A stretch of DNA of 64,000 nt from Escherichia phage phiP4. The stretch is from sequence record PP993145.1; one strand, written 5' to 3'. A model generated the notes under the pieces. That model worked only from the letters and a program-made list of their open reading frames with translations. It was not told where the DNA came from and searched no databases. The first letter of the stretch is position 1; every line of letters begins with the position of its first letter. A program made the position numbers and the translations under genes. Positions 6,223 to 32,210 of this stretch are shown piece by piece.

Positions 6223-6631
6223 GGTAGAGGTTTCCTGTGTCAGTTGGTAAGAAGGACGATTGAGCTTTAGGCGGATGTTGTTTAGTAATCCAGTTAAGAA
6301 TCAGTACACGACTAGGAACAATATCAGTGTTGCACCAAAAATCATGAACCCATTGACGAGCATCCTCAAACTTACCAAATTTATATGCTTTCTTAAATAA
6401 TTCAAACCCAAAACAATCTGGTGTAAAGTCTACTTCACGATATTGAATTACTTTAGAACCAGTTAGGTCTTGGATCGCTGCATTAATTTCTGTATGCGAG
6501 AATTTTGTTTCGTGAAACTTATTAAAGAATCGGTAGTTGAAGCGTCCGTTCGTTTCGACAAACAACTGGATGAAGAGATCGTTAAATTGGTTATCAAACC
6601 AGTAATTCTGTAGTTGTTGTAGTGCTGTCAT
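6170..6631 (-). CDS. hypothetical protein (153 aa)
   Basis: ORF track. Confidence 0.5.
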   Translation of the reverse strand: MTALQQLQNYWFDNQFNDLFIQLFVETNGRFNYRFFNKFHETKFSHTEINAAIQDLTGSKVIQYREVDFTPDCFGFELFKKAYKFGKFEDARQWVHDFWCNTDIVPSRVLILNWITKQHPPKAQSSFLPTDTGNLYHDRKEKSIAGADEGMGE

Positions 6632-6828
6632 TTACGAACTCCGTTAATTGCCACGATGATGCCTTCGTACATAAAAGGAAGTAGCCCAGAAGTATAGAAG
6701 ATATTTTCCGTTATTCCTAGATGTCGAAAAAGTATATTAAATAACGCTGTTAGAAATACAATCTGAGGCAGTAATACAAAATATTCAGTTACAATCTTTG
6801 GTGCCTGATAAACAAGACGTTTTATCAT
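6628..6828 (-). CDS. small membrane protein (66 aa)
   Basis: ORF track; hydrophobic. Confidence 0.4.
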   Translation of the reverse strand: MIKRLVYQAPKIVTEYFVLLPQIVFLTALFNILFRHLGITENIFYTSGLLPFMYEGIIVAINGVRK

Positions 6829-20365: not shown

Positions 20366-20533
20366 TTAATAGAGTTTAGTCACTTCATAAACTATACTAC
20401 GAGATTCTTTATTACGTTCTATTAAATTAGCGTATGCTTTTTCAGCTTCGTTTTTAGTATTAAAGTCTATAACGTGGGAGGTATTAGCTCTGTTTGATTG
20501 ACTATACCAGATAACTACTAGGAGTTTAAACAT
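20366..20533 (-). CDS. hypothetical small protein (track ORF 20366..20560 trimmed to an internal ATG)
   Basis: Track start would overlap the tRNA at 20548..20634. Confidence 0.35.
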   Translation of the reverse strand: MFKLLVVIWYSQSNRANTSHVIDFNTKNEAEKAYANLIERNKESRSIVYEVTKLY

Positions 20534-20547
20534 ACTAGTCCTTAAAT

Positions 20548-20634
20548 TGGTGCTGGGCACAGGATTCGAACCTGCAGTGGGATTACTCCTCCTGATTACA
20601 AATCAGGTGCATTCAACCATTCTGCCAACCCAGC
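20548..20634 (-). tRNA. tRNA with long variable arm; anticodon loop TTTGTAA, formally anticodon TGT (Thr)
   Basis: Hand fold: 7-bp acceptor, CCA, 3-bp D-stem, 15-nt variable arm; identity ambiguous. Confidence 0.5.
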
Positions 20635-20642
20635 AGAACCCG

Positions 20643-20807
20643 TTATTTCAACGGGATTTCTTTTTCAATAACAGGAGACTTATCAGTCATAACTGTCATT
20701 GCCATTTGTTGTAGAAATTCAAAGGTGAAGGCTACACGTTCTTCACCAATCTCTACTTCTACACGTTTCTTTTGTTTATCGATCTTGACTTTTAGGTTAT
20801 CAGCCAT
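20643..20807 (-). CDS. small hypothetical protein (about 54 aa, below track threshold)
   Basis: Hand-translated ORF between two tRNAs, overlapping the stop of 20800..21021. Confidence 0.35.
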   Translation of the reverse strand: MADNLKVKIDKQKKRVEVEIGEERVAFTFEFLQQMAMTVMTDKSPVIEKEIPLK

Positions 20808-21817: not shown

Positions 21818-22186
21818 AATTGAAAACTCGCAGGGTTAGCGAAACCTTCCTCAATTAGCATGTTCTAGAATACTAATCAAGTTATCTCCTATTGCACGCA
21901 GCTCAAGACGAGTACGAATTTTCAATTGTGGCGGCTCTCAGAAACTCTTCTACTCTAGCTTTAGCAGCTTACTCCCGAACGCATGTCGGGGAAGTCTTAC
22001 CAAGAGCATCAAATAGCACCGTTACACTTTGAGCCATAGATGTATCAAGAAGCAGAAGGATTTGAACCTTCACGAGATAGACCAGTTATCTCAGCCGCTT
22101 TATGAGGTATGTTGCAGGGAGTGGATGTTCCCTATAAACCTTTTAGGCAGCCCCGTCTACCGATTCCGGCATACTTCAAGAATTTT

Positions 22187-22360
22187 TTATAAACCAGCAG
22201 AAGCCTCATTTAAAGCATCAACAATAGCTTCACGTTGGGTCATTCCATACCCGGTGGAATCTAGGTGTGGCAAATAAGCCATCCATCCCTTATCTGTTTC
22301 ATGAAGACATGCTTTAAATTTTTTACCATCCTTCATTGTTACAGTAACTGTTTTGCTCAT
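22187..22360 (-). CDS. small protein (57 aa) with HicB-like antitoxin fold signature
   Basis: Hand-translated MSKTVTVTMKDGKKFKACLHETDKGWMAYLPHLDSTGYGMTQREAIVDALNEASAGL; AAGGAA-type RBS. Confidence 0.4.
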   Translation of the reverse strand: MSKTVTVTMKDGKKFKACLHETDKGWMAYLPHLDSTGYGMTQREAIVDALNEASAGL

Positions 22361-22380
22361 AAGATTTCCTTATAGTTAAT

Positions 22381-22470
22381 TGGCAGAAGATAATGGAGTC
22401 GAACCATCACCGTATCGCTACAGCGGGCTGGTTTTCAAGACCAGTTACGTACCACTACGTCCTATCTTCT
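22381..22470 (-). tRNA. tRNA-Ser (anticodon TGA)
   Basis: Hand fold: class II, long variable arm, anticodon loop CTTGAAA, CCA. Confidence 0.65.
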
Positions 22471-23053: not shown

Positions 23054-23130
23054 TGGTGCGTGACAAGGGATTCGAACCCTCAAAACCCGACTTCTAAGGA
23101 CGGTATGTATGCCAATTCCATCAATCACGC
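23054..23130 (-). tRNA. tRNA with Leu-type anticodon TAG but class I (short variable loop) architecture
   Basis: Hand fold: 7-bp acceptor GCGTGAT/GTCACGC, discriminator A, CCA, anticodon loop CTTAGAA, 5-nt variable loop. Confidence 0.5.
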
Positions 23131-23135
23131 ATATT

Positions 23136-23214
23136 TGGTGGAGAATAACGGAATCGAACCGTTCTGATGTCCTCGGTGCAAGCGAGGTGTCCACTCCATG
23201 CAGACCCATTCCCC
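23136..23214 (-). tRNA. tRNA-Ala (anticodon TGC)
   Basis: Hand fold: acceptor with G3:U70 pair, anticodon loop CTTGCAC, CCA. Confidence 0.65.
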
Positions 23215-23500: not shown

Positions 23501-23579
23501 TGGTAGATCGCCTGGGACTCGAACCCAGAACCTTCCGATTAAAAGTCGGATGCTACTAAACCTATTGAGCTAGCGATCT
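23501..23579 (-). tRNA. tRNA-Lys (anticodon TTT)
   Basis: Hand fold: perfect acceptor AGATCGC/GCGATCT, anticodon loop CTTTTAA, CCA. Confidence 0.7.
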
Positions 23580-25127: not shown

Positions 25128-25210
25128 TGGCGGGCCGTGTAGGATTCGAACCTACGTTGTCTTTCGACATGGATTAACAGTCCACCGCCAAACCGCTTGG
25201 CTAACGACCC
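25128..25210 (-). tRNA. tRNA with 13-nt variable arm and anticodon GTT (Asn as read; Tyr-like architecture)
   Basis: Hand fold: acceptor GGGTCGT/ACGGCCC, 3-bp D-stem, anticodon loop CTGTTAA, CCA. Confidence 0.5.
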
Positions 25211-27287: not shown

Positions 27288-27364
27288 TGGTAGGGGTGGT
27301 GGGATTCGAACCCACAAAACCTGAATTTTAAGTCCAGTACCTATGCCAATTCGATTACACCCCC
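27288..27364 (-). tRNA. tRNA with Leu-type anticodon TAA but class I (short variable loop) architecture
   Basis: Hand fold: acceptor GGGGGTG/CACCCCT with G1-U72, discriminator A, CCA, anticodon loop CTTAAAA. Confidence 0.5.
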
Positions 27365-27867: not shown

Positions 27868-27945
27868 TGGTGGCTCCCCGAGGATTCGAACCTACGTACC
27901 TTCCGGTTATGAGCCGGGTGCTCATACCATATGAGCTTGAGAACC
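27868..27945 (-). tRNA. tRNA with anticodon CAT (third CAT tRNA; Met or Ile2), imperfect T-stem
   Basis: Hand fold: acceptor GGTTCTC/GGGAGCC, D-arm GCTC/GAGC, anticodon loop CTCATAA, CCA. Confidence 0.5.
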
Positions 27946-32138: not shown

Positions 32139-32210
32139 TACCGACCGTAGGATTCGAACCTACATCTTCCACCAGTTACGGCTTGATAATACCAATTATA
32201 CTAGGACGGC
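32139..32210 (-). other. tRNA-like element with acceptor and perfect T-arm but no recognisable anticodon arm
   Basis: T-arm GTAGG-TTCGAAT-CCTAC; acceptor 6/7 paired; no CCA. Confidence 0.3.

What the first reader, a model, noticed from the sequence alone, without database searches (positions are those of the whole stretch)
20548..20634. Long-variable-arm tRNA whose anticodon loop reads UUUGUAA
The acceptor stem, CCA and T-arm are perfect and the variable arm is about 15 nt, but the loop gives formal anticodon UGU (Thr), not a Ser/Leu/Tyr anticodon as class II bodies normally carry. Identity is ambiguous.
Basis: seen in the sequence. Interest (0 to 1): 0.55.

Follow-up and report, generated by a model that had tools for sequence, protein, structure and literature searches.

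The report
Phage threonine tRNA with extra arm
This is a real, conserved gene of a T5-like phage for a threonine tRNA (anticodon UGU) carrying the extra hairpin arm that textbooks reserve for serine, leucine and tyrosine tRNAs; it belongs to a little-noticed family also used by some bacteria and most likely just reads ACA codons as threonine.

Summary
Window 20548-20634 (- strand) is an 87-nt tRNA gene: ARAGORN calls Thr-UGU, Rfam tRNA scores 58.6 bits, both with the same boundaries. It has a 15-nt variable region: a 3-bp stem, a GUAA loop and 4 unpaired bases. The window is a T5-like phage, and GenBank already annotates this gene as tRNA-Thr.

"Identity ambiguous" is mostly not supported. I found 36 distinct relatives in phage tRNA arrays, Eremiobacterota and Acetobacteraceae. 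All keep G1-C72, C2-G71 and the UGU anticodon. None has the G2-C71 or G73 typical of serine tRNAs. The extra-arm stem and the 15-48 pair covary. In Eremiobacterota the gene lies by the housekeeping Tyr-Gly-Thr(GGU) tRNA genes.

Phage T5 itself has an unrelated 75-nt ordinary tRNA-Thr(UGU) at the same locus, so this is a cassette swap. About 99 phage records carry the long form and about 310 the short one.

Most likely it is charged with threonine, decodes ACA, and supplements or replaces host tRNA-Thr(UGU), a known target of the PARIS AriB and P2 Old nucleases. It keeps both nucleases' host-type cleavage motifs, so whether the extra arm protects it is untested.

Verdict: known gene, undescribed structural variant.

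The parts
20548..20634 (-). tRNA-Thr(UGU) gene, 87 nt, class II-shaped, CCA encoded
   Evidence: ARAGORN; Rfam RF00005 58.6 bits; annotated tRNA-Thr in AJ604531 and many T5-like phage records
20628..20634 (-). Acceptor stem 5' strand GCUGGGU, carrying G1 and C2 of the threonine identity pairs
   Evidence: G1-C72 and C2-G71 are invariant in 27/27 aligned relatives while pairs 3-7 covary
20609..20625 (-). D arm GCA-GAAUGGUUGAA-UGC: 3-bp stem, G13.A22, extra 20a/20b bases (Ser/Tyr class II type)
   Evidence: In IMG/VR, 92 of the 106 tRNAs carrying this D-arm motif are tRNA-Ser
20591..20607 (-). Anticodon arm CCUGA-UUUGUAA-UCAGG; anticodon UGU at 20598-20600. Contains U36AAUC|A41 and the paired CUG/CAG motif, as in E. 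coli thrU
   Evidence: motifs as defined in PMC12409363 and PMC12445682
20576..20590 (-). Variable arm A-GGA-GUAA-UCC-CACU: 3-bp stem, GNRA-type loop, 4 unpaired 3' bases ending in U48
   Evidence: All three stem pairs change on both sides among relatives. A15-U48 versus G15-C48 covaries in 36/36
20559..20575 (-). T arm GCAGG-UUCGAAU-CCUGU
20548..20558 (-). Acceptor 3' strand GCCCAGC, discriminator A73, CCA
20366..20533 (-). 55-aa ORF (MFKLLVV...) that sits with the long tRNA in the segment replacing T5's short tRNA-Thr; function unknown
   Evidence: Pairwise alignment with T5: homology stops at the tRNA 5' end and resumes at about 20369. ORF listed. phrog_15108, unknown function. ORF trn 2.19.-1 in AJ604531
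20639..20655 (.). Hairpin CCCGUU-GAAAU-AACGGG (6 pairs, 5-nt loop) just 5' of the tRNA, conserved with T5. It marks the left edge of the swapped cassette and overlaps the stop codon of ORF 20643-20807

Best explanation
It is a working elongator tRNA-Thr(UGU) of a T5-like phage. It belongs to a family of threonine tRNAs that carry a short tyrosine-tRNA-style extra arm on a Ser/Tyr-type D arm. The host ThrRS charges it with threonine through G1-C72, C2-G71 and G35/U36 (inferred). It decodes ACA, and probably other ACN codons through U34 wobble (inferred). That codon is about twice as frequent in phage genes as in E. coli. The matching host tRNA (thrU) is the sole UGU isoacceptor in E. coli MG1655 and a preferred target of at least two E. 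coli defence nucleases. It is the only Thr tRNA in the tRNA region covered by this window. In T5-like phages the gene occupies, together with a small ORF, exactly the locus where T5 has an unrelated class I tRNA-Thr(UGU). The two are therefore interchangeable cassettes. The role of the extra arm itself is not established.
For: Shown here:
- It is a real tRNA with a class II layout.
- 99 phage records carry it at >=90% identity, against 310 with the T5-type 75-nt gene.
- The cassette boundaries against T5 are crisp.
- It is the only Thr tRNA among the 24 tRNA or tRNA-like genes of the window.
- There are 36 distinct relatives. G1-C72 and C2-G71 are invariant and acceptor pairs 3-7 covary. 97.3% of cells are paired versus 70% in shuffles. 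The extra-arm helix covaries in all 3 pairs. RNAalifold predicts the same five helices on its own. The 15-48 tertiary pair covaries in 36/36.
- In Eremiobacterota the gene lies within a few kb of, or directly beside, the Tyr-Gly-Thr(GGU) tRNA genes that correspond to E. coli thrU-tyrU-glyT-thrT.
- In an Acetobacteraceae contig it sits between ordinary metabolic genes.
- Features typical of tRNA-Ser with the same D arm are absent: G2, G73, a 4-7 bp arm stem and a single 3' spacer base.
- ACA makes up 25% and ACU 50% of Thr codons in window ORFs.

From the literature:
- P2 Old kills by degrading tRNA-ThrU, and phage UGU tRNAs rescue (PMC12445682).
- Bas33 is phage HildyBeyeler. It carries this 87-nt tRNA (97.7% identical) and no tRNA-Lys(UUU). 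It is rescued from PARIS by T5 tRNA-Lys alone, whereas T7 also needs tRNA-Thr.
- GenBank AJ604531 notes that the CUA derivative is an effective amber suppressor. The body is therefore processed, charged and used by the ribosome in E. coli.
Against: - No aminoacylation or tRNA-seq data for this molecule were available.
- The amber-suppressor note shows that a synthetase can charge the body without G35/U36. If that enzyme is anticodon-blind (SerRS or LeuRS), the wild type could be partly mischarged.
- The tRNA keeps A73 and A15-U48, which are two E. coli LeuRS determinants.
- ThrRS is a class II synthetase, and I could not model whether E. coli ThrRS tolerates the extra arm.
- For the defence part, the tRNA keeps the host-type AriB site (U36AAUC|A41, U16) and the P2-Old CUG/CAG motif with a full 5-bp stem. 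By the published sequence rules it should be cleavable.
- The Bas33 inference is indirect. T5Mos needed plasmid tRNA-Thr despite encoding its own copy.
Confidence: 0.75

Rival explanations
1. Shielded replacement tRNA. This extends the best explanation rather than opposing it. The extra arm is the functional point: it projects next to the 3' strand of the anticodon stem and changes the D-loop geometry, and so blocks docking of anticodon-stem nucleases such as PARIS AriB or P2 Old. The phage tRNA could then keep a host-like anticodon stem, whereas T5 escapes by mutating the stem.
For: - The host-type cleavage motifs are retained, yet Bas33, which carries this tRNA, needs only tRNA-Lys to escape PARIS.
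- AriB is modelled to span from C40-A41 to D-loop U16-U17. Restoring the cleavage site in T5 tRNA-Lys did not restore cleavage, so body features matter.
- The window's tRNA-Asn(GUU), another AriB target, also has an inserted 3-bp/GAAA arm and keeps U36AAUCC41.
- Extra-arm versions of Thr(CGU), Lys(CUU), Asn, Trp and Cys occur in other phage tRNA arrays.
Against: - Nothing was tested directly.
- For P2 Old, arm-swap experiments placed resistance in the anticodon arm.
- The same extra-arm tRNA is a housekeeping gene in free-living bacteria, so the arm need not be an anti-defence device.
- The AriB-type stem sequence occurs in about a third of the family anyway (10/27 have U29-A41).
- Trp and Cys tRNAs are not known targets of these nucleases.
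Confidence: 0.25
2. Recoding or ambiguous tRNA. The class II body is charged with Ser, Leu or Tyr, so ACA is partly or wholly read as another amino acid. This would resemble the nematode nev-tRNAs or SerRS-charged allo-tRNAs.
For: - It has a long-arm body with A73 and A15-U48.
- The CUA derivative suppresses amber efficiently, whereas T5's class I tRNA-Thr derivative does not.
- nev-tRNAs set the precedent (PMC3333845).
Against: - G2-C71, G73 and the long arm stem of tRNA-Ser are all missing.
- U35, critical for E. coli TyrRS, is G here.
- The Leu-type D loop (four bases before G18G19, A20a) is missing, although the window's own tRNA-Leu genes have it.
- The Thr acceptor pairs are invariant across 36 relatives.
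- It is the housekeeping UGU tRNA in Eremiobacterota and the phage's only Thr tRNA.
- The suppressor result has a simpler explanation. CUA supplies U35 to a body that already has A73, G1-C72 and a Tyr-type arm, which makes it look like supF to TyrRS (inference).
Confidence: 0.07
3. Non-translating decoy or relic. The RNA is made but serves as a competitive ligand for tRNA nucleases, or it is a decaying gene.
For: - Intact nuclease motifs would suit a decoy.
- PMC12409363 raises non-productive complexes as a possibility.
Against: - The cloverleaf is fully conserved, the CCA is encoded and the tertiary pair covaries.
- The suppressor derivative works in translation.
- For P2 Old, phage tRNA-Thr acted by replacement, not by competition.
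Confidence: 0.04

Closest known systems
Phage T5 tRNA-Thr(UGU), T5t03 (NC_005859 28667-28741)
   Same: Same locus between the same flanking sequences; same anticodon; G1-C72, C2-G71, U3-A70, A73; CCA encoded. Shown to help counter PARIS.
   Different: It is 75 nt and class I, with no recognisable sequence relationship beyond general tRNA features. Its anticodon stem is altered (G39, U28.U42 mismatch). Its CUA derivative is not a suppressor. No small ORF accompanies it.
E. coli thrU, tRNA-Thr(UGU)
   Same: G1-C72, C2-G71 and A73. The anticodon arm matches in 4 of 5 stem pairs, and the loop is YUUGUAA, including U36AAUC|A41 and CUG/CAG.
   Different: It is 76 nt and class I, with a 4-bp D stem and a 5-nt variable loop. 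Overall identity is 66% and there was no BLAST match in 5,426 E. coli genomes.
Extra-arm tRNA-Thr(UGU) of Eremiobacterota, Acetobacteraceae/Rhodospirillaceae and metagenomic phage arrays
   Same: Same five-helix layout, D arm, anticodon loop, 2-4 bp arm stem with a GNRA-like loop and 3-4 nt 3' spacer, and G1-C72/C2-G71. The Acetobacteraceae form shares GCUGGG... and the T arm GCAGGUUCGAAUCCUGU.
   Different: Eremiobacterota have U73 and no encoded CCA in most cases. They sit in a chromosomal housekeeping context rather than a phage tRNA array.
Bacterial class II tRNA-Tyr (e.g. E. coli tyrU)
   Same: Arm architecture: 1 nt, 3-bp stem, small loop, 3-4 unpaired 3' bases. Also a 3-bp D stem with 20a/20b bases, A73 and G1-C72. 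It is often the neighbouring gene.
   Different: Its anticodon is GUA (U35), its acceptor has G2-C71, and identity to neighbouring Thr genes is only 56-70%.
tRNA-Ser(UGA/GCU) of phages and bacteria
   Same: Nearly identical D arm, GGCAGAGUGGUUGAAUGCA; C11-G24; a long variable region.
   Different: Ser tRNAs have G1-G2-A3, G73 (56/59), a 16-22 nt region with a 4-7 bp stem and one 3' spacer base.
Nematode nev-tRNAs (PMC3333845) and bacterial allo-tRNAs (PMC5389517)
   Same: Extra-arm tRNAs carrying anticodons of class I amino acids.
   Different: nev-tRNAs are eukaryotic, poorly expressed and charged with Leu. allo-tRNAs have 8/4 or 9/3 acceptor/T stems and G73/U73, and are thought to be Ser-charged. 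This tRNA is 7/5 with threonine determinants.

Membership tests
tRNA (Rfam RF00005) | Cloverleaf with 7-bp acceptor, D, anticodon and T arms, scoring above the gathering threshold | tested here: met
   58.6 bits against a threshold of 29, full-length model; ARAGORN call; covariation in all five helices
Class II (long variable arm) tRNA | Variable region of 10 nt or more that forms a stem-loop | tested here: met
   15 nt, GGA/UCC stem with GUAA loop; all three pairs covary among 27 relatives
Class II (long variable arm) tRNA | 3-bp D stem with 13.22 mismatch and enlarged D loop (20a/20b) | tested here: met
   GCA-GAAUGGUUGAA-UGC; the same motif is the usual tRNA-Ser D arm
tRNA-Thr (E. coli ThrRS identity set, established knowledge; review PMC9976931) | G1-C72 and C2-G71 in the acceptor stem | tested here: met
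   Present; invariant in 27/27 aligned and 36/36 distinct relatives, and not part of the search pattern. Also present in T5 tRNA-Thr and in E. coli thrU and thrT
tRNA-Thr (E. coli ThrRS identity set) | G35 and U36 of the anticodon | tested here: met
   Anticodon UGU in a 7-nt loop with U33 and A37
tRNA-Thr | Charged with threonine by ThrRS | not testable with these tools
   Needs an aminoacylation assay. The only indirect support is Bas33 genetics and the housekeeping context in bacteria
tRNA-Ser (bacterial SerRS set) | G2-C71 (with G1-C72) and discriminator G73 | tested here: not met
   C2-G71 and A73 here; 0/36 relatives have G2 or G73, against 56/59 Ser tRNAs with G73
tRNA-Ser (bacterial SerRS set) | Long arm with a 4-7 bp stem and a single unpaired base on its 3' side | tested here: not met
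   3-bp stem and 4 unpaired 3' bases; the family mode is 3 bp, against 5-6 bp in Ser
tRNA-Tyr (E. coli TyrRS set; PMC9976931) | A73, G1-C72 and U35 | tested here: not met
   A73 and G1-C72 are present but position 35 is G. A CUA derivative would gain U35 (inference about the suppressor note)
tRNA-Leu (E. coli LeuRS set; PMC9976931) | A73, A15-U48, Leu-type placement of G18G19, and A20a | tested here: not met
   A73 and A15-U48 are present. However, only three bases (A14 A15 U16) precede G18G19 and 20a is U. The window's own tRNA-Leu genes have GAAUUGGCAUA
allo-tRNA (PMC5389517) | 8/4 or 9/3 acceptor/T-stem composition | tested here: not met
   Standard 7/5
Phage tRNAs that escape PARIS AriB by sequence change (T5 type) | Substitutions at U39, A41 or U16 | tested here: not met
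   U36AAUCA41 and U16 are all retained. T5's own tRNA-Thr has G39
Phage tRNA-Thr resistant to P2 Old (PMC12445682) | Altered paired CNG motif plus a shortened anticodon stem | tested here: not met
   CUG/CAG is intact and the stem has 5 Watson-Crick pairs with C27-G43

The most novel reading that the evidence does not exclude
Phages, and some bacteria, convert class I tRNAs into class II shapes by adding a short GNRA-capped extra arm. Examples are Thr(UGU), Thr(CGU), Asn(GUU), Lys(CUU), Trp and Cys. The change leaves synthetase identity elements and the anticodon stem untouched. It would make the tRNA a poor substrate for anticodon-arm nucleases of defence systems such as PARIS AriB and P2 Old. 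This would be an architectural escape route, distinct from the anticodon-loop or stem mutations described so far.
Probability: 0.2. Interest if true: 0.8.

Novelty: new variant of a known kind. Interest (0 to 1): 0.58.

Why it matters
Reviews state that the long variable arm is confined to Ser, Leu, bacterial Tyr and Sec tRNAs, and that it is a recognition handle for their synthetases. Here a conserved, covarying threonine tRNA family carries such an arm. It is housekeeping in two bacterial lineages and widespread in phage tRNA arrays. That shows the class I / class II division is crossed naturally without a change of amino-acid identity.

It also supplies natural test cases for two questions:
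- How do ThrRS, SerRS, TyrRS and LeuRS discriminate between arm-bearing tRNAs?
- Do defence nucleases that target host tRNA-Thr(UGU) read tRNA shape as well as sequence?

In T5-like phages the long and short tRNA-Thr(UGU) are alternative cassettes at one locus, which amounts to a ready-made natural experiment.

Tried and rejected
- **Single-sequence MFE folding** does not give the cloverleaf. This is usual for tRNAs and uninformative, so I replaced it with covariation analysis.
- **BLAST of the tRNA against 5,426 E. coli genomes** gave no match even at E = 10. It is therefore not a captured host tRNA or a common prophage gene.
- **Similarity to E. coli thrU's anticodon stem as mimicry.** I rejected this as evidence, because the same pairs are common within the family and the expected coincidence is about 0.1.
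- **Origin from tRNA-Tyr by duplication of the neighbouring gene.** Thr-Tyr identity within a genome is only 56-70%, similar to Thr-Ser identity. It remains unresolved with sequences this short.
- **Reading the loop as a shifted GUA (Tyr) anticodon.** I rejected this because the loop has 7 nt with U33 in place.
- **Pattern scans.** Of 240 pattern matches in the genome and metagenome loci, 199 were not tRNAs and are chance matches, as expected from the pattern's information content. Only ARAGORN-confirmed hits were used.
- **Literature searches** for a described long-arm tRNA-Thr found nothing. The library lacks most subscription journals and the Russian T5 papers, so prior description cannot be excluded.
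- **Supplementary tables of the P2-Old paper**, which might list this tRNA among its 245 coliphage tRNAs, are not held.
- **Weak Rfam sRNA hits** (sX4, anti-hemB) fall far below their thresholds and overlap the tRNA, so I dismissed them.

Full report
**What is there**

The window is a T5-like phage (Tequintavirus). An 800-bp stretch around the finding is 98.8% identical to Salmonella phage SE11 and matches 437 phage records. ARAGORN finds 22 tRNA genes between 19.5 and 31.6 kb, all on the minus strand, including tRNA-Thr(tgt) at 20548-20634, 87 nt. Rfam's tRNA model matches 20551-20634 at 58.6 bits (E = 1.3e-12) over the full model, with the extra bases placed as an insertion in the variable region. 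No tool proposes a class I fold or other boundaries.

The cloverleaf is as follows:
- a 7-bp acceptor stem (six Watson-Crick pairs plus U7.G66);
- a 3-bp D stem with G13.A22 and an enlarged loop;
- anticodon arm CCUGA-UUUGUAA-UCAGG;
- a 15-nt variable region A-GGA-GUAA-UCC-CACU;
- a 5-bp T stem (one G.U);
- discriminator A73 and an encoded CCA.

**It is a known gene with an unremarked shape**

GenBank AJ604531 (Salmonella phage 5 tRNA region) annotates the 97.7%-identical gene as tRNA-Thr reading ACA. It adds the note that replacing the anticodon with CUA gives an effective amber suppressor. Many other T5-like records call it tRNA-Thr.

Phage T5 itself has, between the same flanks, a 75-nt class I tRNA-Thr(UGU). 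That gene is unrelated in sequence, and its CUA derivative is noted as not suppressing. A pairwise alignment shows homology running up to the base before the tRNA and resuming at promoter P11. In between, T5 has its short tRNA, whereas the window has the long tRNA plus a 55-aa ORF of unknown function. About 99 phage records carry the long form at >=90% identity and about 310 carry the short one. The long form is the only Thr tRNA in the window. The two extra Rfam hits are a CAU tRNA and a degenerate tRNA-like sequence.

**A family, not an oddity**

The D arm GGCAGARUGGYUGAAUGCA is the standard tRNA-Ser D arm: 92 of the 106 IMG/VR tRNAs carrying it are Ser. A pattern combining that D arm with the loop YUUGUAA returned 41 ARAGORN-confirmed tRNA-Thr(UGU) genes from genome and metagenome loci, all 82-89 nt. 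Together with the window, the GenBank phage loci and the IMG/VR hits, these make 36 distinct sequences. They come from four sources:
- T5-like phages;
- Aeromonas T4-like phages;
- dense phage-like tRNA arrays in metagenomes;
- bacterial genomes of Eremiobacterota and Acetobacteraceae/Rhodospirillaceae.

In Eremiobacterota the gene lies within a few kb of, or directly beside, the Tyr-Gly-Thr(GGU) tRNA genes. These correspond to the E. coli thrU-tyrU-glyT-thrT cluster. In an Acetobacteraceae contig it lies between an FAD oxidoreductase and cytochrome b561, with no phage genes nearby.

On a 27-sequence alignment, 97.3% of cells pair (70% in shuffles; at most 42% when partners are slid). Seventeen of 23 pairs show compensatory changes, including all three extra-arm pairs. 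RNAalifold predicts the same five helices independently. The tertiary 15-48 pair switches between G-C and A-U in 36 of 36 sequences.

**Which amino acid**

G1-C72 and C2-G71 are invariant in every relative, although the acceptor stem was not in the search pattern and pairs 3-7 vary freely. Together with G35 and U36 these form the E. coli ThrRS identity set (established knowledge; the review only says the set consists of acceptor-stem pairs plus anticodon bases). T5's class I tRNA-Thr and E. coli thrU and thrT share G1-C2.

The determinants of the three class II synthetase systems compare as follows:
- **Ser.** tRNA-Ser genes with the same D arm have G1-G2-A3, G73 in 56 of 59, a 16-22 nt arm with a 4-7 bp stem and one 3' spacer base. 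The Thr family has GCY, A or U at 73 (one C, never G), a 13-17 nt arm with a stem of mostly 3 bp, and 3-4 spacer bases.
- **Tyr.** That arm layout matches bacterial tRNA-Tyr (E. coli tyrU: C-GUC-ACA-GAC-UUC). However U35, critical for TyrRS, is G here.
- **Leu.** A73 and A15-U48 are present, but the Leu-type D loop is not.

Threonine is therefore the well-supported identity.

The suppressor note is the one discordant datum. My inference is that CUA supplies U35 to a body that already has A73, G1-C72 and a Tyr-type arm, so TyrRS charges it as it charges supF. This is testable and unproven.

**What it is for**

Window ORFs use ACA for 25% and ACU for 50% of Thr codons. That is well above E. coli usage (established knowledge), so codon supply is one role.

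Two recent papers make host tRNA-Thr(UGU) a prime defence target. PARIS AriB cuts it between positions 40 and 41, and T5 tRNA-Lys, -Thr and -Asn together neutralise PARIS (PMC12409363). P2 Old excises its anticodon stem-loop at paired CNG motifs, and phage UGU tRNAs rescue by replacing the host tRNA (PMC12445682).

Bas33 is phage HildyBeyeler. It carries this long tRNA-Thr and an 86-nt tRNA-Asn, but no tRNA-Lys(UUU). The PARIS paper reports that T5 tRNA-Lys alone rescues Bas33, whereas T7 also needs tRNA-Thr. This is indirect evidence that the long tRNA works and survives AriB.

Against that, the long tRNA keeps U36AAUC|A41, U16 and the CUG/CAG motif with a full 5-bp stem. By the published sequence rules it should be cleavable. 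Either it is not an escape tRNA, or its shape protects it. Neither paper mentions the variable arm.

The same window has a tRNA-Asn(GUU) with an inserted GUC-GAAA-GAC arm and a host-type stem. Other phage arrays hold arm-bearing Thr(CGU), Lys(CUU), Asn, Trp and Cys tRNAs with the expected discriminators. An architectural escape route is thus the most novel reading not excluded. I put it at about 0.2, because the same tRNA is housekeeping in bacteria and nothing was tested.

**Comparison with what is known, and verdict**

Searchable reviews say the arm is specific to Ser, Leu, bacterial Tyr and Sec. The named exceptions are the nematode nev-tRNAs (Leu-charged) and the allo-tRNAs (8/4 or 9/3 stems). 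This tRNA is neither. I found no paper describing a long-arm tRNA-Thr, but the library is incomplete.

The gene is already annotated, so it is not a new gene. The structural class and its distribution appear undescribed, which makes it a new variant of a known kind. Interest is moderate to fairly high for tRNA and phage-defence specialists.

Noticed in passing
window 25128-25210 (-): tRNA-Asn(GUU) of 83 nt also has an inserted extra arm (GUC-GAAA-GAC plus AAC) on an otherwise class I body, and keeps the host-type U36AAUCC41. T5's tRNA-Asn is 78 nt. The long form is in at least 284 phage records at >=90% identity, and 85-nt relatives occur in Klebsiella T4-like phages.
   Followed up: partly
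window 23054-23130 (-) and 27288-27364 (-): tRNA-Leu(UAG) and tRNA-Leu(UAA) are only 77 nt with a 5-nt variable loop, so they are class I-sized leucine tRNAs. They keep A73, A15-U48 and the Leu-type D loop GAAUUGGCAUA. T5's tRNA-Leu1 is 85 nt with the arm.
   Followed up: partly
window 23501-23579 (-): tRNA-Lys(UUU) of 79 nt has an enlarged D loop. It reads U36AAUCG41 (A41 changed to G), which differs from both E. coli and T5 tRNA-Lys at the PARIS AriB site.
   Followed up: no
window 27871-27945 (-) and 32139-32210 (-): Two tRNA-model matches were missed by ARAGORN at default settings. One is a CAU-anticodon tRNA at the position of T5 tRNA-Ile2. The other is a degenerate tRNA-like sequence with an irregular anticodon loop.
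   Followed up: partly
window 22381-22470 (-) and 23136-23214 (-): tRNA-Ser(UGA), with A1-U72, and a 79-nt tRNA-Ala(UGC) with an 8-9 nt variable loop are called by ARAGORN but fall below Rfam's gathering score.
   Followed up: no
window 20639-20655: Hairpin CCCGUU-GAAAU-AACGGG (6 pairs, 5-nt loop) immediately 5' of the tRNA, conserved in T5. It reads as a terminator-like site on the + strand, opposite to the genes, and overlaps the stop codon of ORF 20643-20807.
   Followed up: no
window 20366-20533 (-): A 55-aa ORF (phrog_15108, unknown function) sits with the long tRNA-Thr in the segment that replaces T5's short tRNA.
   Followed up: partly
L048/L118, L094, L087 (IMG/VR); L003 992-1078 = L077 (Erwinia phage pEp_SNUABM_01); L263 10872-10958, 12335-12419, 13187-13269: Other phage tRNAs have the Ser-type D arm and/or a short extra arm but anticodons of class I amino acids: Cys(GCA), with discriminator U73 in two of the three forms, Trp(CCA) with A1-U72/G73, Thr(CGU) and Lys(CUU).
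   Followed up: partly
L263 1350-1436 and 7518-7892; L318 7460-7535: Metagenomic phage-like tRNA arrays that carry the long tRNA-Thr also hold an 87-nt tRNA with a CUA (amber) anticodon and a tmRNA (L263), and a tRNA with a UUA (ochre) anticodon (L318).
   Followed up: no
L004 (T5) 6285-6645, corresponding to window about 21818-22380: T5 and phage 5 records annotate stable RNAs of unknown function (RNAIII, RNAI, tRNA-like RNA1) between tRNA-His and tRNA-Ser. I did not examine the homologous window stretch.
   Followed up: no
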